Shown here piece by piece: positions 1 to 12,111 of a stretch of DNA of 64,000 nt (the stretch's first letter is position 1; each line of letters begins with the position of its first letter). The notes beneath the pieces are model-generated. The model made no database searches. It was given only the letters and a program-made list of their open reading frames with translations, and was not told the origin of the DNA. The position numbers and the translations under genes were made by a program. Source of the stretch: a virus (lineage: Duplodnaviria > Caudoviricetes); IMG/VR virus record IMGVR_UViG_3300028048_000063, positions 64,001 through 128,000 of that record. One strand, 5' to 3'.

Positions 1-3000
1 AGCTACGCCGTTATTTTTAAGGTCAGCAACAAAATTATTAATAAAACTATAAATTCCAGGACCTGTTGCACCCAAATTAACTACGTCACCAACAGCATCT
101 TTCCTAATATCGAAATCAAATGCTGGCAACAATAAGAAGTCATTTGCTATGGCTGTCTCATTATTTGGGAACATCATATTATCCCCGGCTTTAACTGCTA
201 CAGGAATATATTTTGCGCCAGCTTGCATTTCAGCAATCTTTATTAATTGCTCTTTTGTATATTTATTATTTCCATAAGTATCTGTCTTTTCTAGATCAGC
301 AACTTTTTGGTCAATATAAGCTTGCCCACCAGCTCGTTCTATCAATTCTTGTCGCTCTACGTCAGATAAATTTAAGAATGCTTCTTCTTGTTTTTTTCTA
401 ATATCGTATAATAATGTTCCTGTAATTTTGTCTAACTTTGGTAATTTAGAATCTTGCGATTGTATTTCTTCACTATATACACCGTTTTTAATATCTTGTG
501 CTAATTTAGTTATGTTTATATTCTTTAAAAATTCATCATTAATATCGTAAATAATTCCATGTCTGGCTCTAATACTACTTTCATTTGTGTCAATATCTTC
601 TGCCATTTCTTGGATCATATTATGATATTCAAGCATTCCATCATATCTTTTACGGGATATCTCTGTGTCTCTAGATTTATCTCTGTAATACTTTCTCAAA
701 TCACCCATATCTACATCAGATAATTGTTCTGTGAGATTAATCAAAGACATTAAGGAATTAAATTCACGATATCCATATCTAACAGGCATACCACCTTTAG
801 ATAAAGGCATACCATATTTTTTACCAGCGTGTCCCATTAACATATATGAAAGGAATGCGTCGTCTGCATTTTCAATTCCAATAGTATTTTGGAGACCACT
901 GTTAATAATATTAAACCATTGTTCAGGATTTAATGATATTGGTTTATCATTTTGTGTATATTTATAAGCAGAAGTACCGTTATAGGCTGTAGAAAAAGCC
1001 TCCATAAAAGCTGGGAAATATTTTTTAAATACTCCTCTAGCTGCAATTGCTTCTGGGCCAGACTGTTCAACGACTGTACCGTTTCCTACTTTATATAATG
1101 CATCCCAAGCATCTTGTAGTGCAGTTGATCCTTTGACAGTCAATCTTCGTTTAATTTCGTTAATAAAACCAGCAGGAGTTCTGTCTGAAGCAATAAATTC
1201 ACCCTTATCATTCTTTTCGGTGAGCATACGGCCATAAGCATCCCACATAGCTCCGATTGCAGAGTTGACTACATTTTTACTTTCTACGGCTTCTTTGTCT
1301 ATAATACCAGTAATGCTTTTGTTCATGTAAAAATCATCACTATGCCCACGAACTCGTGCAAGATATGGTAGTAATTCATTTAAATTAATAGAAGTACCTG
1401 TAGCACGTACTGTTGTACCTGGGGCAACATATTTCATACTTTGAGCACTATGTTTCCCATTATATCCTTGTAAAATACCAAAACTTGTGACACCAGAATC
1501 TTTATCAATATTACCAGCCAGCCAATCATTAACAAATGCGTCAATTTGATCCTCATATCTTTTCTTTTTAGTATTATATGTTGGTCTACCCAAACCGCTA
1601 CCAAAACTTAAAACATCTGCGCTAGGATTATATGTTTCTAAATCTGAAACATGTTGTTGCATAGCTTGTCTTACAGCTTTTTTAAGTAAAGCATCATCGC
1701 TTAGTTTGCTAGTATTATGTGCTTTTAATTTTTCAAATTTTAATTTAATAGCTTCATTGGCTAAAGATTTCGCAATAACACTACTTGCAGCAATTTCTTG
1801 TGCACGTTCTTGATCTAATATAATACCACCATTTTGTATACTAAGTACCAACTCTTTTTGTGCACGTTTTAATCTACTACTTAAAGCATTATATGCTGCT
1901 GGATCTAAAGCCTTGTCAACTGCGTCTCTCTGTTTAGTTAAATCGGCAACTCGCGCCTCTAAAGCATCATGCAATTCTTTTTGTGTAGCTTGAATAAATC
2001 TTGTAGTATCATATGCTTTTGAGTCTGGGTTTACTCCTAATCCACTTTGCTCTCTTTGTGTTAAAAATTTAGCTCCTTTTGTGAAAGCTTTTGAATTTTT
2101 ATCATTAAAGAAATTTTGTTCTGTTAATGTTGTCTGATATCCTTTTCTACTCTGTTTTGGTAGTAAGAAATTTAACATATGTGGCACATTATTTAAATAT
2201 GCCATAGTTAAACCATTAGAGTCAGAAACTGGACCATAGACTAAGTCCATTTTTGCTAATTGACCTAATGTATTTAATACAGGTACAGCCAATCTATAAT
2301 CATTTAGAATTGGCTTAAACTTACTATTACGTTTAATAATTTCATACCCCTTTTTAACACCAGAGGCAGATACAATTAACCCCATCTCGTTTAACAAACG
2401 AGTAGCTTGATCTTTTTTTACAGCTTGTTCAGCAAAGCTACCCTTGCCAGCATAATATTTATCAAGTATACCTTTAAAGAGATCTCCTAAATAAACGCCA
2501 GATTTTATAACGTCTTGTCTTTGTTGGCTTCCTTCTATCTTCATTGCGTCTTCTAGATCTCTCATTGTGGAAGCGTTATATTGAGACATAGCACTACCAA
2601 CATTTATAGCATTTTGAGTGCTGGTATTCATAATACGTTTAAGATCTTTTAATCCTTGGGCTGCTTGTACTTTATTTGCGGACTTAATCATCTTAATAGC
2701 TTCAATATTTTTTTCATATTGAAATTCTTGTAAGATATTATTAAGTGCGACTTCTGTGGCTCCTAATAATTTTAAGTTTCCTTCACCATCTGTTGCTGCT
2801 TGTAAAAGATTATTTCTTTGTTGGTTATTAAAATAAATAGTACCATGAGTATCTATTGGTAAGTTCCAAACTTGCTCTTTGATGCCCAATTTATTATAAA
2901 AGTCTTGATCACCATAAGGAAGAGGAACGAGTTGTAACATTGTGTTGTTTCCAACTTTTTGTGTTCTAACATTTACATCAATCCCGGCATCGTTTAATAT

Positions 3001-3213
3001 ATGTAGTACTTCTTCAAGCTTTGCTTTTGCAGATCCGCTACCACGCGTATCTAGTGCTTTTGTTATTATATCGATTTGCGATGAAGTACGTCCAGTATAT
3101 TTGGTCATATCTGTTGCTTTGTCTAAAGCATTTGTACCTTCGAGCGCTTGTCGTATCTCTGGATGTTTCCTAAATAGATCTTCTAGATCTCTATAATTTT
3201 CATTTTCTATCAT
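1..3213 (-). CDS. Giant protein, N-terminal 1071 aa (runs off window); probable virion-associated tape-measure/ejected protein
   Basis: Not in the ORF track because it has no stop in the window. ATG at 3213 is preceded by AAAGGAGG. My manual translation (MIENENYRDLEDLFRKHPEIRQALEG...NNFVADLKNNGVA) stays open to position 1. Function is inferred from size and position only. Confidence 0.55.
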   Translation of the reverse strand, partial: MIENENYRDLEDLFRKHPEIRQALEGTNALDKATDMTKYTGRTSSQIDIITKALDTRGSGSAKAKLEEVLHILNDAGIDVNVRTQKVGNNTMLQLVPLPYGDQDFYNKLGIKEQVWNLPIDTHGTIYFNNQQRNNLLQAATDGEGNLKLLGATEVALNNILQEFQYEKNIEAIKMIKSANKVQAAQGLKDLKRIMNTSTQNAINVGSAMSQYNASTMRDLEDAMKIEGSQQRQDVIKSGVYLGDLFKGILDKYYAGKGSFAEQAVKKDQATRLLNEMGLIVSASGVKKGYEIIKRNSKFKPILNDYRLAVPVLNTLGQLAKMDLVYGPVSDSNGLTMAYLNNVPHMLNFLLPKQSRKGYQTTLTEQNFFNDKNSKAFTKGAKFLTQREQSGLGVNPDSKAYDTTRFIQATQKELHDALEARVADLTKQRDAVDKALDPAAYNALSSRLKRAQKELVLSIQNGGIILDQERAQEIAASSVIAKSLANEAIKLKFEKLKAHNTSKLSDDALLKKAVRQAMQQHVSDLETYNPSADVLSFGSGLGRPTYNTKKKRYEDQIDAFVNDWLAGNIDKDSGVTSFGILQGYNGKHSAQSMKYVAPGTTVRATGTSINLNELLPYLARVRGHSDDFYMNKSITGIIDKEAVESKNVVNSAIGAMWDAYGRMLTEKNDKGEFIASDRTPAGFINEIKRRLTVKGSTALQDAWDALYKVGNGTVVEQSGPEAIAARGVFKKYFPAFMEAFSTAYNGTSAYKYTQNDKPISLNPEQWFNIINSGLQNTIGIENADDAFLSYMLMGHAGKKYGMPLSKGGMPVRYGYREFNSLMSLINLTEQLSDVDMGDLRKYYRDKSRDTEISRKRYDGMLEYHNMIQEMAEDIDTNESSIRARHGIIYDINDEFLKNINITKLAQDIKNGVYSEEIQSQDSKLPKLDKITGTLLYDIRKKQEEAFLNLSDVERQELIERAGGQAYIDQKVADLEKTDTYGNNKYTKEQLIKIAEMQAGAKYIPVAVKAGDNMMFPNNETAIANDFLLLPAFDFDIRKDAVGDVVNLGATGPGIYSFINNFVADLKNNGVA

Positions 3214-4954: not shown

Positions 4955-5950
4955 TTATGCTTCTGTCATGACGCCGTTATCCCATGCGTAAAGTTGATCA
5001 TCTGCGTAGTCAAAGAAAATCTTAACGTCTGCACCTGTACCTGCGTTAGCAATAATACATGCGTCATCTGTTCCTTCGATCCAAACAATCAATTTAACTT
5101 GAATAAGATCTTCAAATGGTGTCATAGCTGTTGCACTATCATAGAGTGGTACAATATAATACCAATCACCAGCAGCAACTGTGTGGTGTTCATCAAGAGT
5201 TGATCCAGCTGCGGATACATATGTTCCTGCTGTAACAGTCCCTGTGAAGTTGTTAGATTGTACTTTCCCTGGGTATGCACTCATACCTCTATTTGCGATT
5301 GTATCTGTAATGACAGTTTCAGATGTACCGTCATAGATAGCGAGATAGAAGTGGATAGCTGCTGCCATCTTAATTTGAGTACTTGCTGTTGGTACGATTT
5401 GAAGTGTGAGATAAGCTTGTTTTACACTGTTTGCATTAGAAGCTGTTACTGCTAAATCGAAATCGATATAGTCTTTTTGAACTTCTGCTGCCGCAACAGA
5501 ACTTGTATCTACAACGCTTGCGTCTCCGTTAGCCTTATACCAACTATTTGCTGCGATTGTTGTGCTAGCTGCTGAACCTGTGCCAGAAATGGCTGTTGTT
5601 GTATAGCTGACTGCTTTGCTTGCTCCTATTGTCATGTCAATGTTTTGGCCTGCGTTTTCTGGATCTTGAATTTGGAAATTAAGATTTGTACCCATATAAG
5701 AGTCTCCATTCCATTTTGATCCGTCCCAAACAACATCACCGTATCTATAATCAGTGTATTGTCTTGAAGCTTGAGCTGTTGTTGTGCCTAAAGCACCAAT
5801 AATCAAACCATCAGCTGCTGTGGCTTCTAAACGGATAGATTCTACAGTTGCGCTTGCTGTAGCACTAAACCATGCATAGGTTGCGGTAGTTAAAGATACT
5901 GCTAACACTAGTACCATAACTATCGTTGCGATTGTTAAACTTTTCTTCAT
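4955..5950 (-). CDS. Secreted protein with SipW-cognate (TasA/camelysin-type) signal peptide
   Basis: MKK, hydrophobic stretch, then TTATYAWF (T-x-A-W-F signature); Ala/Thr/Ser-rich beta-type body. Confidence 0.7.
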   Translation of the reverse strand: MKKSLTIATIVMVLVLAVSLTTATYAWFSATASATVESIRLEATAADGLIIGALGTTTAQASRQYTDYRYGDVVWDGSKWNGDSYMGTNLNFQIQDPENAGQNIDMTIGASKAVSYTTTAISGTGSAASTTIAANSWYKANGDASVVDTSSVAAAEVQKDYIDFDLAVTASNANSVKQAYLTLQIVPTASTQIKMAAAIHFYLAIYDGTSETVITDTIANRGMSAYPGKVQSNNFTGTVTAGTYVSAAGSTLDEHHTVAAGDWYYIVPLYDSATAMTPFEDLIQVKLIVWIEGTDDACIIANAGTGADVKIFFDYADDQLYAWDNGVMTEA

Positions 5951-6038: not shown

Positions 6039-7238
6039 TTAATTTTTTTGATATAAATAATAATTAAAGTTTGGATCGTATTCGTTATTAAGATTGTCAA
6101 TAATATCTCTAAAATATGGATAATCTGTAGCTTTAGCTTTTTCTATGAAATATTTATTTGCTTGAGCTTCAGCAACAGTTTCTCCACAATTGTTTACAGA
6201 CTCAAAAAAGTCACCCTTATAATAATAATTATCTGCAGGACATTCTTCACAACTATGTATAATAGGACATCCTTGACATTGATAATTGTTATGTGCAGAG
6301 ATTCTATTTAAAAAATCTGTGACAAAATCCATATCTAATGTTTTATTGAAAATATTTCCAATTGGCCTATATTTATCTTGTAAACTTGATTCAGATAATC
6401 TAAAACAATTATATAAGTTACCATATACGTCTATAGCTATCTGTACACCTGTCATTCCGCAACTTGAATATTCTTTAACTGAATTATAATTATACGTAAA
6501 AGGAGTTATAATAAAAGGAATTTTATTATCAAGTATCCAATCTGCAACCTTAATTAACTCATTTTTATATTGCTCACACTCTACAGGTGTAATTTCTTGT
6601 GTAATATCTAGATTCATTCTTGCTCTTTGATATCCTAATGAATATAAATATTTACAAGAATCTAAAATATATTTGAAAGTTTCTGGCGTAAATGTCATTT
6701 TACTGTTTGGGACGTCACCTATTCTTTCTTTCTCTGCTTTTACAGCTCTATCTACATCATAAAAACTCGGCCTACCATCTTTATATCTTCTGCACTTATC
6801 ATGACATTCTTCACATCCGTCTATTGTGATTGGGGCAGAGATCTTTTCTTTATATTTATTCAAAAAATGTTGTACATCTTCGTTAAAATATGTTGTACCA
6901 TTTGTCTCTAATACTATACGGGTTTTATAAAACCATTTTACTAAACGGTGTTTAGCACACTCTCTAAACCAATAATCCGTTATAGATTCTACTAAATCCA
7001 TATACAATGTTATCTCTCCACCAATAAAATCTAGCTCCACTTCTGTATCGTTATCAATTTCATTGTTTTGTTCGAAATAAGGTCGTAAAAAACTTTCGCC
7101 TGTTGTTTTATATGATATAACTTCGTCTATGAGTTTTGTGGCCGTTGTAAGTTGTATGACTTTATTTTTTTTAAATTCATAACAATAGGTACATGCCATA
7201 TTGCATTCTTCTGTTATATGAAAAGTTACTCTAAACAT
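6039..7238 (-). CDS. Radical SAM/SPASM peptide maturase (resembles the CXXX-repeat target family)
   Basis: CNMACTYC (CxxxCxxC), FIGGE motif, C-terminal SPASM cysteines CG...NCF...CQGC...CEECP...NCG. Confidence 0.85.
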   Translation of the reverse strand: MFRVTFHITEECNMACTYCYEFKKNKVIQLTTATKLIDEVISYKTTGESFLRPYFEQNNEIDNDTEVELDFIGGEITLYMDLVESITDYWFRECAKHRLVKWFYKTRIVLETNGTTYFNEDVQHFLNKYKEKISAPITIDGCEECHDKCRRYKDGRPSFYDVDRAVKAEKERIGDVPNSKMTFTPETFKYILDSCKYLYSLGYQRARMNLDITQEITPVECEQYKNELIKVADWILDNKIPFIITPFTYNYNSVKEYSSCGMTGVQIAIDVYGNLYNCFRLSESSLQDKYRPIGNIFNKTLDMDFVTDFLNRISAHNNYQCQGCPIIHSCEECPADNYYYKGDFFESVNNCGETVAEAQANKYFIEKAKATDYPYFRDIIDNLNNEYDPNFNYYLYQKN

Positions 7239-7563
7239 TTATAGTATCCTCCTCATCTTTTAAATAAACTTCTATATCACCATTAACTCGACCATGAATA
7301 TAAATAATTTTATAATCAATTAAATTATCGCCATAATAAAAGATCATAAGATTATGTATTCTGTCTAAATTATTGTTTATTCGATTGACACAATTCTCTC
7401 TTTCTGCAATCAAATCTGAAATAATATTATCTATACATAAATCCGCATATTCTTCTTGTGTTAAAGCATTTACTAAATCTGTTGTTACATCTATGTTATA
7501 AATATCTTGTTCACAAAAATCATTGATTAAATCATTTGTCATTTTGTATATAACTGTCTTCAT
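7231..7563 (-). CDS. Small acidic accessory protein of the radical SAM cassette
   Basis: Lies between the Cys-rich gene and the rSAM gene and overlaps the rSAM start; position matches the small partner in CXXX-repeat modification loci (inference). Confidence 0.5.
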   Translation of the reverse strand: MKTVIYKMTNDLINDFCEQDIYNIDVTTDLVNALTQEEYADLCIDNIISDLIAERENCVNRINNNLDRIHNLMIFYYGDNLIDYKIIYIHGRVNGDIEVYLKDEEDTINV

Positions 7564-7574
7564 ACACACCCCCC

Positions 7575-8186
7575 CTATTGTCCAGACGACCTTCTACATG
7601 TAACATATATACAGGTACTGCCGCCCTTTGAAGATTTGCCACAAGTTGTTACAGCTGAACAAGTACTACAACTAGAAGAAGAACCACAAGTTGTTGTAGC
7701 ACTACATGTGCCGCAAGTACGACCAGATGCTCTATATTCTATTGTTGTTGCTCCAGATACAGTCACAGATGTTGTCGAAGTATTATTTACATATGGATAT
7801 ACATAAAAAGTATAACTACCAGCTGTGTATGAAATATAACTTGGCATCGTTAAAACGTCTCCGTAGTGGGCTGTAAATGTCCATGAAGCAGCAGCCCCTG
7901 ATGCTGTTGTGCTCCAGCTTTCAGAACTATGAGTAGAATTTGTGACTGTCAACGTGCCAAAATATTCAGGGGCGTATGTTCCTGTTAAGGAAACCGTAAT
8001 TGTATATTTCTCTTGAAGAATGGTATAGATAGTACTTGACCCAGTTCTGTAAGAAGAATCAATGGCGCCTGTGACAACAGACAGTGTACAATCATACCCT
8101 GAACTGTTAGCTGGCGTATAATTTGAAGATGCTTGGTTTAGATTAACAGCATAATCTTGACTACTATTTTTTGTATAATATGACAT
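7575..8186 (-). CDS. Ser/Thr-rich protein with Cys-rich C-terminal tail; putative rSAM substrate and tail-fibre component
   Basis: C-terminus TCGTCSATTTCGSSSSCSTCSAVTTCGKSSKGGSTCIYVTC (8 Cys); start set at ATG 8186. Confidence 0.7.
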   Translation of the reverse strand: MSYYTKNSSQDYAVNLNQASSNYTPANSSGYDCTLSVVTGAIDSSYRTGSSTIYTILQEKYTITVSLTGTYAPEYFGTLTVTNSTHSSESWSTTASGAAASWTFTAHYGDVLTMPSYISYTAGSYTFYVYPYVNNTSTTSVTVSGATTIEYRASGRTCGTCSATTTCGSSSSCSTCSAVTTCGKSSKGGSTCIYVTCRRSSGQ

Positions 8187-8187
8187 A

Positions 8188-8592
8188 TTAATCACCAACC
8201 TTTTCTTCGAGCTTTTTAACTCTATCTTCTAAATTATCATTACGCTTAATCTCTTCTTTTAATGCACCTATTAACCAGTAAATTAATTTAGTTTCATTAA
8301 TTGAATAAAAACCATCATCATTAATATAAATCATAGACTTTAAGTATTCGTTTGGTAATATTTGTTCTAATTCTTGTGCGATTATACCTATAATTAAATT
8401 TTTATCTTTATCACACTTAAAATTAAATTCTTTAAGTATAATTTTATCTAAAATTTCTTTGAAATTAATATCCTTAACTTCTTTAATATTTTCCTTTAAT
8501 TCTTTGTCTGACGTTGAATAGAAATTAACTGCAGTAATTTTTCCTGTTGAAGTTAAATCTCCATTCACTATTGTGCTGCCTAAAATTGCCAT
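8188..8592 (-). CDS. Stand-alone tail-fibre intramolecular chaperone (peptidase S74-like)
   Basis: STSDKELKENI, GIIAQE, and a C-terminal coiled coil LIGALKEE...LEDRVKKLE. Confidence 0.8.
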   Translation of the reverse strand: MAILGSTIVNGDLTSTGKITAVNFYSTSDKELKENIKEVKDINFKEILDKIILKEFNFKCDKDKNLIIGIIAQELEQILPNEYLKSMIYINDDGFYSINETKLIYWLIGALKEEIKRNDNLEDRVKKLEEKVGD

Positions 8593-8594
8593 AG

Positions 8595-10514
8595 TTAATT
8601 CTCCTTTATTTCTCTAGTTTCTAAGAAACCATTTTTTAATAATCTATTTGTTGTGCTACTAACTCTTATATATACTAACTGCCATCCATAGCATTGTTGT
8701 CCATTGTAACTTGGTATATATCCAGTTCCCCAGTACGAACAAATACCACAACCAAACCAGTTACCATTCGATGTATTAGCAAAGCACATTTTACAATTAC
8801 TTGCATTATACCAATACATACCAGCATAACTATTTGTTGTTGTTGCAGATATTCTAGTTACATTTGTTCCAACTTTTGCAGGATTAACATCGTCCCAAGT
8901 TGCATTAAATGGATTTTTATTTTGTTTCCATCTATATCGTTCAAAGCCTCCCCCAACACTAGTTTGGTGTTGAACCATAAACTCATACCAGCCACTTTCT
9001 GGTCTATTTACGACATTGATCAAACCAAAATTACTCCATTTATCTATTGCTTGCGAGTTTAATGTCGTAAAATCACCACTGTTACTAAACACACCATTTG
9101 CTACATTATGGATACAAATAGGTAGCCAAGTGGATCCATCTTCTAATGTAACAGTTTCATACAAACTTGATGTTTTGATAGACCCTGTCTTTAAAAAACT
9201 CGTTTTTGTTAAAGTGGTATCTTCTTCTACAATATTACAGTAAATACCCCCTTTATTGTCAACACTTTCTCTTACCTGGTATAAGGCTGTTATGTCTGTC
9301 TGCGCTAAAGCAGTTGCATAAACCCTAAGATCAGATACTTGCCCGTTAAACCAGTTAGCTCCACTACAACGTATACCGAGCCTCATTTCTCTTGATCCAA
9401 AATCAGATCCAAATGATCCACTTTGCGTTCCTTTAGATACTCCGTTTATATATAATGTTGCATTTGTAGATGTCATAGTAACTACTACATGATACCATGT
9501 ACCAGTAGTGAATCCACAAGTAGAGGCACTCCATGTGTAAGAGCCTCCAGCAGAACTATAACATTGTAATCCATATGTTGTACCGCCATACATTGGTTGT
9601 GTCCCTGTCTCCCCAGAAGGAGCTCTATTATCTATAATATGGTAAGAGCCAGTGCTCCCAAATTTTAGCCAGCAAGCATATGTCATTGCAGTTGTTAGTG
9701 GAATACTTCTATATACATAATTACTACTACCATTAAATGAAGCGCTTCTTCTTCCAATGTTTGTTGTTGTGCTGTAACTAACGCTACCTGATCCATTATG
9801 TCTAAGACCACTCGAATCGGTTAGATCTTCTGTATTAAAAGTATAATGTAATATTAATCCTCTAGCAAGTTCTTTTATTTCCTTTGTAGATAATGTATGA
9901 TTATATGCTCTTAAATCATTTATATAACCATTTAATTTATAGTTATCATAAACACCATTACCGCTAGCATTGGCGAAAGACCAACACCCAATCATAAAAT
10001 AGTCTGCAGGTGTAGACATGCCAGTATATGCATGTGATCCATCTAAATTACCGTTGACATATAACCTAATAGTACTGCCATCATATGTATAGCAAAGATG
10101 GTACCAAGTGTTCGCTTGTAATAAAGTAGAACCACAATAAGTATTATATGTTCTTGAGCTCCCGTTACCAGTATTTACACTCAAATAGCCAGTAGTAGAA
10201 GACACGTATTTAATTGTCATCCCCATACCTACATTACTTGGGTATCTGTGCTGCCCTGCAATAGATCCACCAAGAGAACTATCACTGCTCAAACTACTGA
10301 ACTTAACCCACGCACATATAGATTGATTTTGACCTAAAGTGACTGTATTGTTAGAAACATATCCACCACTAGAATAAGATGTGTTGCCATAACAACATAC
10401 TGTTACCTTACCCGCATTGGTTAAACTAGAACCACTTAAACTAGTAAAATTTAAATTTGAAGTTCCATAATTAATTATACTATTATTCAAGGGAAGCCAT
10501 ATTACTAAACTCAT
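8595..10514 (-). CDS. Tail fibre/receptor-binding protein with two LamG (ConA-like lectin) domains
   Basis: WYHLCYTYDGSTIRLYVNG and WYHVVVT..TLYING with G.I.DLR.Y motifs; start moved to ATG 10514 with an AGGAGG SD. Confidence 0.8.
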   Translation of the reverse strand: MSLVIWLPLNNSIINYGTSNLNFTSLSGSSLTNAGKVTVCCYGNTSYSSGGYVSNNTVTLGQNQSICAWVKFSSLSSDSSLGGSIAGQHRYPSNVGMGMTIKYVSSTTGYLSVNTGNGSSRTYNTYCGSTLLQANTWYHLCYTYDGSTIRLYVNGNLDGSHAYTGMSTPADYFMIGCWSFANASGNGVYDNYKLNGYINDLRAYNHTLSTKEIKELARGLILHYTFNTEDLTDSSGLRHNGSGSVSYSTTTNIGRRSASFNGSSNYVYRSIPLTTAMTYACWLKFGSTGSYHIIDNRAPSGETGTQPMYGGTTYGLQCYSSAGGSYTWSASTCGFTTGTWYHVVVTMTSTNATLYINGVSKGTQSGSFGSDFGSREMRLGIRCSGANWFNGQVSDLRVYATALAQTDITALYQVRESVDNKGGIYCNIVEEDTTLTKTSFLKTGSIKTSSLYETVTLEDGSTWLPICIHNVANGVFSNSGDFTTLNSQAIDKWSNFGLINVVNRPESGWYEFMVQHQTSVGGGFERYRWKQNKNPFNATWDDVNPAKVGTNVTRISATTTNSYAGMYWYNASNCKMCFANTSNGNWFGCGICSYWGTGYIPSYNGQQCYGWQLVYIRVSSTTNRLLKNGFLETREIKEN

Positions 10515-10524
10515 ATATACCTCC

Positions 10525-12111
10525 TTAGAATACAAAATCTATAGACTCAGTTGATGTATTATATTGCATTGTAGCTTTAGCTGTCCCCGAAGATGTAATT
10601 CTATACTTATCACTATCTAATTGTCCAGCTGCGCTTGATAAAACAACATAATTCGCACTTCTACCACCGGACGTACTAGAGTTTAAAGTAATTTTTCTAC
10701 TGCCACTTGTTGTAATGGCACTAGTACTATCTATCGATAACCCTGTTCCAGCAGTTGTGATAGTTACACTTGTAACAGTACCATTAGCATAATTATTTGG
10801 GTTACTTGCTAAATAATATTGACTATGAGTATGGTTCTTAGAAACAGCAACTCCATCAGTATCTGTTGCGCCATTCATGTCTCCAGTAGCTAGCTTAACA
10901 TGGCCGTAGTTAGCGGTTGTGCCAGCACCATAGGTGGTAGCAGAAGAAGCGTGTGAAGTAGGTGTTCTGCTATTACTTAATCTACTATCATTACCAACGC
11001 AAACTGAGGTCGCACTCGTTCCTGTAGGTACATATAAATCATTAACTCCTGTACCTGTACCTATTTTTAAACCAGAACTATAGCTTGGTGTGTGATAATA
11101 GTTTGTATCAACCCCTCCTGCTAATACTTCTGTCATAGTTTTGGTAGTGGTTCCATCAGTTAAACCTGCTGCTCGTAAATTACCAGCTAAATATTCATTT
11201 CCAGACCAATCTAATGTTCTTGCATTTGAACGAGCAGATGAAGTTCCATTACCAACTATTTCTACATAAGTATCAGCTGTATCTTCTATATTATACTTAC
11301 CACCTACATGCTGATATTGTGAAGATGCAACAGTGCTAAAACCTTCGGCATGAGAACCTTGGCCTGAAGCAATAGTACCAGAACCTTCAGCATGAGAATT
11401 AGGACCTGACGCGAAAGTATTATACCCTTCGGCGTGTGCTCCGCCATTTGATGCTATTGTACGATCACCTTCGGCGTGAGATAATCCATAGGCTGCGCCA
11501 TTACATATATATACTGTGGCACTTGATAGCGCAGAGCTAGACAGGGTTGATGACACAGTTATTGTAGTACCCGTACCAGAAACAGTGTTAACTCTTGCAA
11601 CTTTTTTATTTGTGCCACTCCCATATGATAATATCGTGCCAACTTTTGGTGCAACACCAGAAGCAATAGTATAGCTTGTAGTATTTGCATCTCCAGTGAG
11701 TTTAAATGTAGAACTAGTAGATTTACCATATCCTTCTGCATGGCCACCATCAAGAGCAGTTGTCCCCGTACCTTCAGCATGTGAGTAATTACCAAAAGCT
11801 CCTGTAATATATCCTTCTGCTAAAGAATAACTTCCGGCAGCAGTATTACTACTACCTAATGTTGTACTGTAACTACCAACAGTAGTCATCATAGCTCTAT
11901 TCATACTTAAACTACCAGTACCGATCGCATCAGCTTTATTCATTTTTGTGGATATATCTGGAATTTGGCTTGTTAAAGCAATCGTCGAATCTGCGGTTAA
12001 TGTAGGCAAAACCGCTTCATATCCGTTATTTTGCAATCTTTCTGGAATAATTTCGTAATCTGTTACTCCATCTGGATTTATTTTTTTAATTTTATTTGTA
12101 GGTAAAGCCAT
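10525..12111 (-). CDS. Tail fibre with YadA-head-like SHAEG repeats
   Basis: Multiple (S/A)HAEG repeats, VGNGTSSARSNARTLDWSGNEY, YGHVKL fibre motif. Confidence 0.75.
   Translation of the reverse strand: MALPTNKIKKINPDGVTDYEIIPERLQNNGYEAVLPTLTADSTIALTSQIPDISTKMNKADAIGTGSLSMNRAMMTTVGSYSTTLGSSNTAAGSYSLAEGYITGAFGNYSHAEGTGTTALDGGHAEGYGKSTSSTFKLTGDANTTSYTIASGVAPKVGTILSYGSGTNKKVARVNTVSGTGTTITVSSTLSSSALSSATVYICNGAAYGLSHAEGDRTIASNGGAHAEGYNTFASGPNSHAEGSGTIASGQGSHAEGFSTVASSQYQHVGGKYNIEDTADTYVEIVGNGTSSARSNARTLDWSGNEYLAGNLRAAGLTDGTTTKTMTEVLAGGVDTNYYHTPSYSSGLKIGTGTGVNDLYVPTGTSATSVCVGNDSRLSNSRTPTSHASSATTYGAGTTANYGHVKLATGDMNGATDTDGVAVSKNHTHSQYYLASNPNNYANGTVTSVTITTAGTGLSIDSTSAITTSGSRKITLNSSTSGGRSANYVVLSSAAGQLDSDKYRITSSGTAKATMQYNTSTESIDFVF

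What the first reader, a model, noticed from the sequence alone, without database searches (positions are those of the whole stretch)
6039..8592. Radical SAM/SPASM maturase cassette wired into the tail-fibre operon: possible thioether cross-linking of a virion protein
Seen: four tightly coupled genes directly after the LamG fibre. They encode an S74 chaperone, a 203-aa Ser/Thr-rich protein with tandem CxxC(x5)CG repeats at its C-terminus (CGTCSATTTCG / CSTCSAVTTCG), a small acidic protein and an rSAM/SPASM enzyme. Established: rSAM/SPASM enzymes of sacti/ranthipeptide and CXXX-repeat systems install Cys-carbon thioether links in Cys-rich peptides. Unusual here: the substrate is a ~200-aa fibre-like protein rather than a short RiPP, and there is no transporter or peptidase for export. 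Inference: RiPP-type chemistry repurposed to mature a receptor-binding tail tip in an anaerobe's phage.
Basis: partly seen in the sequence, partly recalled or inferred. Interest (0 to 1): 0.82.

Follow-up and report, generated by a model that had tools for sequence, protein, structure and literature searches.

The report
Phage cysteine-tail protein with radical-SAM maturase
A 150-kb phage of an anaerobe carries, right after its tail-fibre genes, a radical-SAM enzyme, a small helper protein and a 203-residue protein ending in a cysteine-rich tail; the set stays together in every related phage examined, which suggests, without proving, that the phage enzymatically cross-links the end of a tail-associated protein.

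Summary
On the minus strand, four abutting or overlapping genes follow the LamG fibre gene. They encode a stand-alone S74 chaperone-like protein, a 203-aa Ser/Thr-rich protein, a 110-aa acidic protein and a 399-aa radical SAM/SPASM enzyme. The 203-aa protein has 8 Cys in its last 46 residues.

The enzyme's best family match is the CXXX-repeat maturase TIGR04115. The match is full length but scores 192 bits against a cut-off of 350. The target and helper HMMs do not match.

In a tree the enzyme falls in a fully supported clade nested among phage CXXX-ladder maturases. In the roughly ten distinct contexts found for this clade, the gene just upstream ends in a Cys-bearing tail on a conserved beta-sandwich domain.

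The helper is a new small family, predicted to dock on the enzyme (0.79 against a best control of 0.20). The enzyme lacks the usual N-terminal recognition domain.

My best reading is a divergent phage branch of the CXXX-repeat system that cross-links this tail, most likely through thioethers. Neither the chemistry nor a place in the virion is shown.

This scan has already noted canonical CXXX-ladder cassettes in phage tail modules in at least 73 other genomes. It has not noted this short-tail variant. New variant of a known kind; interest 0.6.

The parts
6039..7238 (-). Radical SAM/SPASM enzyme, 399 aa, the predicted maturase. It has no N-terminal recognition (RRE) domain.
   Evidence: TIGR04115: 191.9 bits, E 2e-56, profile positions 4-359 of 359, cut-off 350. 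PapB family NF047865: 116 bits. SPASM TIGR04085: 31.3 bits against a cut-off of 27. CxxxCxxC at residues 12-19 and the seven SPASM Cys are invariant in 9 relatives. The closest solved structure, CteB 5wgg, aligns only from CteB residue 100.
7231..7563 (-). Small acidic helper protein, 110 aa from ATG 7563, pI 4.1. Its stop overlaps the enzyme's start codon by 8 nt.
   Evidence: No Pfam, NCBIfam or PHROG family. It belongs to a small family found only upstream of enzymes of this clade. AF2 model: pLDDT 90, one strand, four helices and a beta-hairpin. Predicted to bind the enzyme: score 0.79 against a best control of 0.20.
7575..8186 (-). Cys-tail protein, 203 aa from ATG 8186, the predicted substrate.
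   Evidence: Translation. Family members range from 179 aa to more than 1,300 aa. All carry the same last beta-sandwich and a Cys-bearing C-terminus, and each is followed by an enzyme of this clade.
7578..7715 (-). Cys-rich C-terminal tail, residues 158-203. It holds two C-x2-C-x5-C-x5 units and a terminal C-x4-C-x-[KR]-S-x-G motif. This is the predicted site of modification.
   Evidence: 8 Cys in 46 residues. Tail Cys positions are kept in the relatives with multi-Cys tails, while the terminal motif is kept across most of the wider clade. AF2 pLDDT is below 50 here.
7713..8012 (-). Beta-sandwich (Ig-like or CnaB-like) domain, residues 59-158, directly before the tail.
   Evidence: AF2 pLDDT 80-94. 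Best structural matches are stalk domains of Gram-positive adhesins and pilins: 5u6f Z 8.4, rmsd 2.5 over 95 residues; 6bbt Z 8.1. These are marginal by the tool's own calibration.
8022..8186 (-). Conserved N-terminal segment, residues 1-55, with no confident fold on its own. It may be a docking or recognition segment.
   Evidence: Similar N-termini in P0125, P0126, P0128 and P0130 despite different lengths. pLDDT below 50.
8188..8592 (-). Stand-alone S74 intramolecular-chaperone-like protein, 134 aa, with its own ribosome-binding site.
   Evidence: Pfam PF13884, E 6e-11. It matches the C-terminal ends of many PHROG tail-fibre families. S-D-x3-K motif at residues 28-33. The same stand-alone gene sits in relative L095, whereas it is fused to the fibre in L003 and L012.
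8595..10535 (-). Context: LamG-domain fibre-module protein, 646 aa.
   Evidence: Laminin_G_3, E 3e-41. PHROG virion structural protein families.
10525..12111 (-). Context: fibre protein, 528 aa. Its N-terminal 46 residues match the N-terminus of the S74-bearing fibre of relative L003.
   Evidence: 54% identity over residues 1-46, E 3e-13. phrog_2012 minor tail protein, weak.

Best explanation
This is a divergent, phage-borne branch of the CXXX-repeat radical SAM/SPASM maturation system.

Proposed mechanism:
1. The four genes are made together with the late tail-fibre genes.
2. The 399-aa enzyme lacks the built-in recognition domain of peptide maturases. It works as a complex with the 110-aa acidic helper.
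3. The complex acts on the disordered, Cys-rich last 46 residues of the neighbouring 203-aa beta-sandwich protein.
4. The most likely chemistry is reductive cleavage of SAM, abstraction of a hydrogen from a nearby residue, and capture of that carbon radical by a Cys sulfur. Each event gives a thioether (ranthionine-type) ring.
5. The floppy tail thereby becomes a compact knot that reduction cannot open and proteases should cut less readily, on a protein of the tail-fibre module.

Shown here: the genes and motifs, the family relationship, and the strict co-occurrence of enzyme and Cys-tailed target. Supported by a model only: helper-enzyme binding. Inferred: that the tail is the substrate, the thioether chemistry, and that the product is part of the tail.
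For: Family. TIGR04115 is the best match and covers the full length. PapB comes next, and SPASM is above its cut-off. All cluster-binding Cys are invariant.

Tree. In a tree of 74 distinct enzymes, the window groups with L003, L004, L006, L008, L009, L011, L012 and L015-L020. Support is 1.0 on a long stem, and the clade sits among canonical phage CXXX-ladder maturases.

Pairing. In every context of that clade, the gene just upstream ends in a Cys-bearing tail after the same beta-sandwich, while its N-terminal part varies from about 180 to more than 1,300 aa. More widely, 79 of 80 IMG/VR loci holding a relative of the enzyme have a Cys-dense ORF on the same strand nearby.

Single candidate. The tail is the only such sequence in the 150-kb genome.

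Tail-module setting. S74 fibre or LamG genes lie upstream here and in L003, L012 and L095. Canonical cassettes sit after baseplate-wedge and tail-protein genes and beside tail-fibre genes.

Helper. The genes overlap by 8 nt. The complex model scores 0.79 against a best control of 0.20. That mark was reached by 58 of 80 solved complexes and by 2 of 110 mismatched pairs. The three runs agree in 100% of contacts and the partner's pLDDT is at least 87. My own alignments were used, so those counts hold only roughly. The enzyme lacks an RRE.

Precedent. Radical SAM/SPASM enzymes install thioethers on proteins as well as peptides: CrpC on the 28.8-kDa CrpA (PMC13692751) and QhpD on quinohemoprotein amine dehydrogenase (PMC8326336). 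CteB links a Cys to a Thr two or five residues downstream (PMC8326336). In both repeat units here, a Thr lies five residues after the second Cys.
Against: - No chemistry has been measured.
- The enzyme scores far below the TIGR04115 cut-off, and the target and helper match no CXXX-system model.
- The tail contains no Asp or Glu. PapB-type acceptors are therefore absent apart from the C-terminal carboxylate (PMC12373016).
- The paired C-x2-C motifs could simply bind a metal.
- The protein matches no PHROG or virion family, and no cultured phage carries this variant.
- Two nested relatives, L011 and L012, have only two Cys and no helper. The repeats and the helper are therefore dispensable for whatever the core function is.
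- The helper shows no RRE-like fold.
Confidence: 0.55

Rival explanations
1. The Cys tail is a plain metal-binding element, with Zn or an Fe-S cluster held by the C-x2-C pairs. The neighbouring radical SAM enzyme does something else, or only helps to load a cluster.
For: Two C-x2-C pairs lie 12 residues apart, as in zinc knuckles. The authors of the CrpA study also suspect a metal-related role for their Cys-rich protein (PMC13692751).
Against: The residues between the Cys are almost all Ser, Thr, Gly or Ala, with no hydrophobic core, and AF2 gives no fold. The tail co-occurs with an enzyme of this clade in every context examined, including relatives with only two Cys. The enzyme's nearest families are all Cys-peptide maturases.
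Confidence: 0.12
2. The enzyme modifies the same tail, but by different chemistry. Candidates are Cys to formylglycine as in anaerobic sulfatase maturases, a sactionine (C-alpha) link, carbon-carbon cross-links, or epimerisation.
For: Weaker matches to the anaerobic sulfatase maturase (52 bits), QhpD and cyclophane-forming enzymes. There is no acidic acceptor in the tail.
Against: The top matches are CXXX-repeat and PapB, then other Cys-rich-peptide maturases. The only solved structure found at strong significance is the thioether-forming CteB. The feature conserved in the targets is Cys itself.
Confidence: 0.15
3. The product is not a virion part. It could be an assembly chaperone for the fibre encoded upstream, or a factor released at lysis. 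In the second case the beta-sandwich would serve as a large leader for a RiPP-like end.
For: Genes directly after fibre genes are often assembly factors (general knowledge of tail-fibre operons). There is no PHROG structural match. The N-terminal 55 residues are conserved but unfolded.
Against: No protease or exporter is present in the cassette. The family grows by adding beta-rich repeat domains up to more than 1,300 aa, as structural and adhesin-like proteins do. Canonical relatives occupy the fibre slot after baseplate genes.
Confidence: 0.15

Closest known systems
NCBIfam CXXX-repeat peptide modification system (TIGR04115 enzyme, TIGR04114/04117/04118 targets, TIGR04116 accessory, TIGR04119 second maturase)
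   Same: The enzyme's best match is TIGR04115, over the full length, and it nests among such enzymes in a tree. The layout is the same: a Cys-rich C-terminal target, then a small protein of about 100 aa whose gene overlaps the enzyme gene.
   Different: The enzyme scores 192 bits against a cut-off of 350. The target has 8 Cys spaced 2/5/5 plus a terminal motif, not a Cys at every fourth residue, and it follows a folded beta-sandwich. The helper shows no detectable similarity to TIGR04116 or to the canonical phage helpers. There is no TIGR04119 gene. The system's chemistry is uncharacterised as far as my searches reach.
Canonical CXXX-ladder cassettes in phage tail modules (IMG/VR loci L021-L094, gut phage contigs L001 and L010, Salmonella phage SPN3US)
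   Same: They share a phage setting beside baseplate and fibre genes, an enzyme of the same radiation and a small protein encoded just upstream.
   Different: Those targets have a shared N-terminal domain of about 110 aa and ladders with 11-13 Cys per 40 residues, up to about 350 residues long. The window's clade instead has a short tail on Ig-like domains and its own helper family. I found no paper on either form.
Ranthipeptide maturases PapB (freyrasin) and CteB (thermocellin)
   Same: These are the second-best family (PapB, 116 bits) and the closest solved structure (CteB, E 3e-9). Both are SPASM enzymes that make Cys-to-carbon thioethers (PMC12373016, PMC8326336).
   Different: Those enzymes carry an N-terminal RRE that binds a leader peptide, and they act on short peptides. 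PapB needs an Asp, Glu or C-terminal carboxylate acceptor. Here there is no RRE, no acidic residue in the tail, and a folded protein as substrate.
CrpC/CrpA of Methanococcus voltae and QhpD/quinohemoprotein amine dehydrogenase
   Same: Both are radical SAM/SPASM enzymes that install thioether cross-links on a protein rather than a peptide. CrpA also has a repeated Cys motif in its C-terminal part and an N-terminal domain that aids recognition (PMC13692751, PMC8326336).
   Different: CrpC belongs to TIGR04463, which the window's enzyme matches at only 42 bits against a cut-off of 525. CrpC has its own RRE. Both systems are cellular, not viral, and have no link to a tail module.
Covalently cross-linked stalk domains of Gram-positive pilins and adhesins
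   Same: The beta-sandwich before the tail resembles these domains most closely (Z 7.3-8.4). They too are surface fibres stabilised by internal covalent bonds.
   Different: The Z-scores are marginal. Those bonds are isopeptide, ester or thioester links that form on their own inside the domain. They are not enzyme-made thioethers in a terminal tail.

Membership tests
CXXX-repeat system (NCBIfam) | Enzyme reaches the TIGR04115 cut-off of 350 bits | tested here: not met
   191.9 bits, E 2e-56, profile 4-359 of 359. It is the best of 36 families.
CXXX-repeat system (NCBIfam) | Target carries tandem Cys-x-x-x repeats (TIGR04114/04117/04118) | tested here: not met
   No match even at E up to 10. 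Cys spacing is 2/5/5 in two units.
CXXX-repeat system (NCBIfam) | TIGR04116 accessory protein present | tested here: not met
   No match for the 110-aa protein or anywhere in the genome, though that genome-wide search also rang in no control genome. Profile comparison with canonical small proteins gives probability at or below 0.4%.
CXXX-repeat system (NCBIfam) | TIGR04119 second SPASM maturase present | tested here: not met
   No match in the 150-kb genome.
CXXX-repeat system (NCBIfam) | Enzyme falls inside the maturase radiation in a tree | tested here: met
   The clade has support 1.0 and sits among canonical phage maturases. Its sister is L040, with support 0.72. The tree is midpoint-rooted FastTree on 74 distinct sequences, after dropping 18 identical rows.
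Radical SAM superfamily | CxxxCxxC cluster motif | tested here: met
   C12, C16 and C19 are invariant in 9 relatives. Pfam PF04055 scores only 20.6 bits against a cut-off of 29.5.
SPASM domain (TIGR04085) | Score above cut-off and seven auxiliary-cluster Cys | tested here: met
   31.3 bits against a cut-off of 27. C260, C278, C321, C324, C330, C333 and C351 are invariant.
PapB-family ranthipeptide maturase (NF047865) | Score above 340 bits | tested here: not met
   116.1 bits.
RiPP radical SAM maturases with a fused RRE (CteB, PapB, CrpC) | N-terminal RiPP recognition element | tested here: not met
   The radical SAM motif starts at residue 12. Alignments to CteB and to RRE-bearing families start at their positions 80-100.
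PapB-type thioether target | Asp or Glu acceptor C-terminal to each Cys | tested here: not met
   There is no Asp or Glu in residues 158-203, so only the C-terminal carboxylate is available. Chemistry as described in PMC12373016.
Stand-alone RRE (PqqD-like) | The 110-aa helper has the winged-helix RRE fold | tested here: inconclusive
   The AF2 model is confident (pLDDT 90). No RRE appears among Foldseek or VIA matches, and the best Z is 6.5, to generic helical hairpins.
TIGR04463 (CrpC family) | Score above 525 bits | tested here: not met
   42.3 bits.
Peptidase_S74 intramolecular chaperone | Pfam PF13884 above cut-off, and a Ser-Lys motif | tested here: met
   42.9 bits against a cut-off of 22. 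S-D-x3-K at residues 28-33. Unlike the usual form, it is a separate gene, and this is conserved in L095.
Virion tail-fibre component | The 203-aa protein is present in particles | not testable with these tools
   No PHROG match. No cultured phage carries this variant. Only gene position supports it.

The most novel reading that the evidence does not exclude
The phage enzymatically staples the C-terminal end of a tail-fibre accessory protein into a thioether knot that serves as the exposed, protease-proof tip contacting the host. Substrate recognition would use a folded beta-sandwich and a new helper protein that docks on the enzyme, in place of the leader-peptide and RRE logic of RiPPs. That would make it a virion protein carrying RiPP-type cross-links, and the short-tail clade a minimal, tractable model for the widespread phage Cys-ladder cassettes.
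Probability: 0.3. Interest if true: 0.8.

Novelty: new variant of a known kind. Interest (0 to 1): 0.6.

Why it matters
Radical SAM thioether chemistry is known from small secreted peptides and, so far, from very few proteins. If phages use it on tail-module proteins, three things would follow:
- It would be a new kind of virion maturation.
- It would give a possible reason why such particles withstand gut proteases and reducing conditions.
- It would explain why these proteins could be missed by standard proteomics.

The short-tail clade offers a small substrate, with 8 Cys and in some relatives only 2. It also offers a three-gene set that can be co-expressed and read out by mass spectrometry. 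That makes the uncharacterised chemistry of the whole CXXX-repeat family directly testable.

Tried and rejected
- Close relatives in IMG/VR with the single enzyme sequence: none. An alignment query was needed.
- tblastn of the Cys-tail protein against 50,697 phage records: no match.
- Helper protein: only 4 sequence relatives in the 5.8-billion-protein set. Foldseek against the PDB found nothing at E <= 0.001. VIA wide search gave best Z 6.5 to generic helical hairpins, with no RRE listed.
- Homology between the helper and the canonical small proteins: two profile comparisons were not significant. The second aligns end to end, but at E 0.15.
- Homology of the window's target and helper to those of the canonical phage locus L001: none.
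- The 331-aa TasA-like gene downstream as part of the cassette: rejected, since the gene in the same position in L006 is unrelated.
- LamG and S74 as one gene split by a frameshift or an assembly error: rejected. The S74 ORF has its own Shine-Dalgarno sequence, the upstream frame is closed, and L095 has the same separate gene.
- A paralogue of the beta-sandwich elsewhere in the window: none.
- Covariation of the predicted interface. Enzymes that lost the helper (L011, L012) are less conserved at the 23 interface positions than elsewhere (0.43 against 0.52 and 0.30 against 0.52). Helper-bearing enzymes are not. The sample is too small to count as evidence.
- Literature searches on the CXXX repeat, TIGR04115, phage plus thioether plus tail fibre, SPN3US plus radical SAM, SPASM plus bacteriophage, and phage-encoded RiPP: no paper on such cassettes.
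Full report
**Setting.** The window is bases 64001-128000 of a 150,079-base IMG/VR virus record that CheckV rates complete. It carries portal, terminase-like and many tail-type genes, plus an anaerobic ribonucleotide reductase. A long late operon runs on the minus strand at about 33% G+C. An anaerobic host is therefore plausible.

Read in the direction of transcription, the minus strand encodes:
- a 528-aa fibre protein (10525-12111);
- a 646-aa protein with two LamG domains (8595-10535; Laminin_G_3, E 3e-41);
- a 134-aa Peptidase_S74 chaperone-like protein (8188-8592; E 6e-11);
- the Cys-tail protein (7575-8198);
- a small acidic protein (7231-7569);
- a 399-aa radical SAM/SPASM protein (6039-7238).

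The junctions show how tightly the genes are coupled:
- The S74 gene has its own AAGGAG and starts 2 nt after the LamG stop.
- The Cys-tail gene most likely starts at ATG 8186, 1 nt after the S74 stop.
- The small gene most likely starts at ATG 7563, after a run of G. That gives 110 aa with pI 4.1.
- Its stop overlaps the enzyme's ATG by 8 nt.
- No terminator-like site lies between 4800 and 12500, and promoter-like sites occur at chance level.

The 203-aa protein is 38% Ser+Thr. It has Cys at residues 158, 161, 167, 173, 176, 182, 192 and 197, and only one Cys elsewhere. Two 15-residue units of C-x2-C-x5-C-x5 share 11 of 15 residues. Eight Cys in 46 residues against a 1.5% background is far from chance. 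No other plausible gene in the whole genome has such a tail.

**The enzyme.** It has CxxxCxxC at residues 12-19. Its SPASM domain is above cut-off (TIGR04085, 31.3 bits against 27), and all seven auxiliary-cluster Cys are invariant in nine relatives. The family matches, in order:
- TIGR04115, the CXXX-repeat maturase: 191.9 bits over the whole profile, but well under the cut-off of 350.
- The PapB ranthipeptide maturase family: 116 bits.
- Other Cys-peptide maturases, at lower scores.

The closest solved structure by sequence is the thioether-forming CteB, and the alignment begins at CteB residue 100. RRE-bearing families likewise align only from their positions 80-100. The enzyme therefore lacks the N-terminal recognition element that such maturases use to hold a leader peptide (role described in PMC8326336 and PMC12373016).

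It gives a mixed result. In current NCBIfam, TIGR04114 is the Cys-repeat target, TIGR04115 the enzyme, TIGR04116 the 90-aa accessory protein and TIGR04119 a second maturase. Only TIGR04115 matches, and below cut-off. The 203-aa and 110-aa proteins match nothing even at E up to 10. The genome has no match to TIGR04116 or TIGR04119, though the TIGR04116 search also rang in no control genome.

**Relatives of the enzyme.** They form a ladder from 85% down to about 30% identity. I fetched contexts for the closer ones and for relatives of the Cys-tail protein. In every case the gene directly upstream of the enzyme ends in a Cys-bearing tail.
- L095 is syntenic with the window: 533 aa, LamG, a stand-alone S74 gene of 134 aa, a 194-aa Cys-tail protein, a 102-aa small protein and the enzyme.
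- L003 and L096 have targets of 478 and 464 aa. L004 has one of 921 aa, L006 one of 187 aa, and L008 one of more than 1,300 aa.
- The N-terminal parts differ by added beta-rich repeat domains.
- The last beta-sandwich and the tail are kept.
- A terminal motif, C-x4-C-x-[KR]-S-x-G, lies a few residues from the C-terminus and is shared across most of the clade. The C-x2-C-x5-C-x5 units, two or three of them, belong to the window's closer relatives.
- L011 and L012 keep only the two terminal Cys and have no small protein, yet an enzyme of the same clade follows directly.

**Wider survey.** An alignment query found 283 relatives in IMG/VR, of which 80 loci were fetched.
- In 79 of the 80, a same-strand ORF with at least 5 Cys per 40 residues lies within a few kb of the enzyme.
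- Most are canonical ladders with 11-13 Cys per 40 residues behind a shared N-terminal domain of about 110 aa.
- Six loci, L015-L020, are of the window's type: the same beta-sandwich, a six-Cys tail, and a 105-aa small protein whose gene overlaps the enzyme gene.
- Sampled neighbours are baseplate-wedge, tail and tail-fibre proteins.
- The same holds for gut phage contigs L001 and L010.
- In the cultured Salmonella phage SPN3US, three Cys-ladder ORFs lie unannotated or called in the wrong frame, between a fibre-like virion protein and two radical SAM genes.

**Tree.** In a FastTree of 74 distinct enzymes, every enzyme with a short-tail target forms one clade. Support is 1.0 on a stem of 0.92, and the clade is nested among canonical phage maturases. 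L011 and L012 group with the window, L003 and L004 at 0.998. The window's system is therefore a derived branch of the CXXX-repeat radiation. Within it, the two-Cys, helper-less forms are probably secondary reductions.

**The target's fold.** AF2 gives a confident beta-sandwich for residues 59-158 (pLDDT 80-94). It gives no confident fold for residues 1-55 or for the tail. The sandwich resembles stalk domains of Gram-positive adhesins and pilins (5u6f Z 8.4; 6bbt Z 8.1). That level is marginal by the tool's own calibration. The result fits an Ig-like structural or adhesin-type protein. It does not show a fibre or a receptor-binding function.

**The helper.** It has very few relatives. An iterative search finds it only upstream of enzymes of this clade. 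The canonical phage cassettes have a different small-protein family, 61 sequences in my set. Profile comparisons between the two are not significant.

Its AF2 model is confident (pLDDT 90): one strand, four helices and a C-terminal hairpin. It has no informative structural match.

A complex model with the enzyme supports binding but does not show it. The score is 0.79 against a best control of 0.20, a mark reached by 58 of 80 solved complexes and 2 of 110 mismatched pairs. The runs agree in 100% of contacts and the partner's pLDDT is at least 87. My own alignments were used, so those counts hold only roughly.

The modelled interface joins helper helices 22-56 to enzyme residues 88-105 and 128-132. 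The helper's small sheet is outside the named contacts. I read the helper as a docking subunit that stands in for the missing RRE. That role is inference.

**Chemistry.** Thioether formation is the best guess because the nearest characterised relatives make Cys-to-carbon thioethers.
- PapB links Cys to the carbon next to an Asp or Glu carboxylate, or to the C-terminal residue (PMC12373016).
- CteB links Cys32 of its peptide to a Thr two or five residues downstream (PMC8326336).
- Protein substrates have precedent in QhpD (PMC8326336) and in CrpC, which installs ranthionine links on the 28.8-kDa Cys-rich CrpA (PMC13692751).

The window's tail has no acidic residue. It is rich in Thr, and a Thr lies five residues after the second Cys of each unit. 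A CteB-like acceptor is therefore more plausible than a PapB-like one. This rests on resemblance, not on a test.

**Rivals.** Three remain open, and none is excluded:
- a plain metal-binding tail;
- other radical chemistry on the same tail;
- a product that is not part of the particle.

The strict pairing of tail and enzyme, including in the two-Cys forms, argues most strongly against the first.

**Novelty.** I found no paper on phage cassettes of this kind. Earlier notes of this scan describe canonical CXXX-ladder cassettes in phage tail modules in at least 73 genomes. I reproduced that pattern independently.

I rate this a new variant of a known kind. It shares the enzyme radiation and the operon logic. 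It has a different target architecture, a new helper family and no fused recognition domain.

Noticed in passing
window 8188-8592 (-); L095 4595-4999: The S74 intramolecular chaperone domain is a separate 134-aa gene with only 27 residues before its S-D-x3-K motif, and the same gene exists in relative L095. In L003 and L012 the domain is fused to the end of the fibre, as is usual. What a free S74 module chaperones, or what becomes of its 27-residue stub, is open.
   Followed up: partly
window 4955-5950 (-): The 331-aa protein just downstream has an N-terminal hydrophobic segment ending in a TasA/camelysin-like (SipW-type) signature. A 331-aa gene follows the enzyme in the 85%-identical relative. 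The gene in that position in L006 is unrelated, so this is not part of the conserved cassette.
   Followed up: partly
window 8595-8810 (-), C-terminal ~70 residues of the LamG protein: The LamG fibre-module protein ends in a stretch with 5 Cys in 40 residues. This could be a disulfide or metal site, or conceivably a second substrate. Not examined.
   Followed up: no
L013 (Salmonella phage SPN3US, NC_027402) 2067-2459, 2470-2874, 2890-3096: Three ORFs of 130, 134 and 68 aa, each with a short N-terminal domain and a Cys-every-fourth ladder, lie between a fibre-like virion structural protein and two radical SAM genes. The record annotates only one 112-aa hypothetical protein there, in a different frame.
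   Followed up: partly
L008 and L012: Two relatives of the cassette sit in phage contigs that need another genetic code. The enzyme of L008 translates to the database protein only with TGA read as Trp. The target of L012 does so only with TAG read as Gln.
   Followed up: no
proteins P0056, P0082, P0083, P0092, P0097: Several relatives of the enzyme, 580-600 aa long, carry precomputed Hint/intein Pfam domains. This suggests intein-interrupted radical SAM genes in other phages.
   Followed up: no
L006 1-688; L007 1-689: An IS605 OrfB/TnpB-type gene (Cas12f-like TNB domain) lies just upstream of the fibre genes in the 45%-identical relative.
   Followed up: no
L025 3979-5223; L064 3564-5471: Many canonical phage cassettes carry two Cys-ladder genes in a row. 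One has the N-terminal domain of about 110 aa, and the other is almost pure ladder.
   Followed up: no
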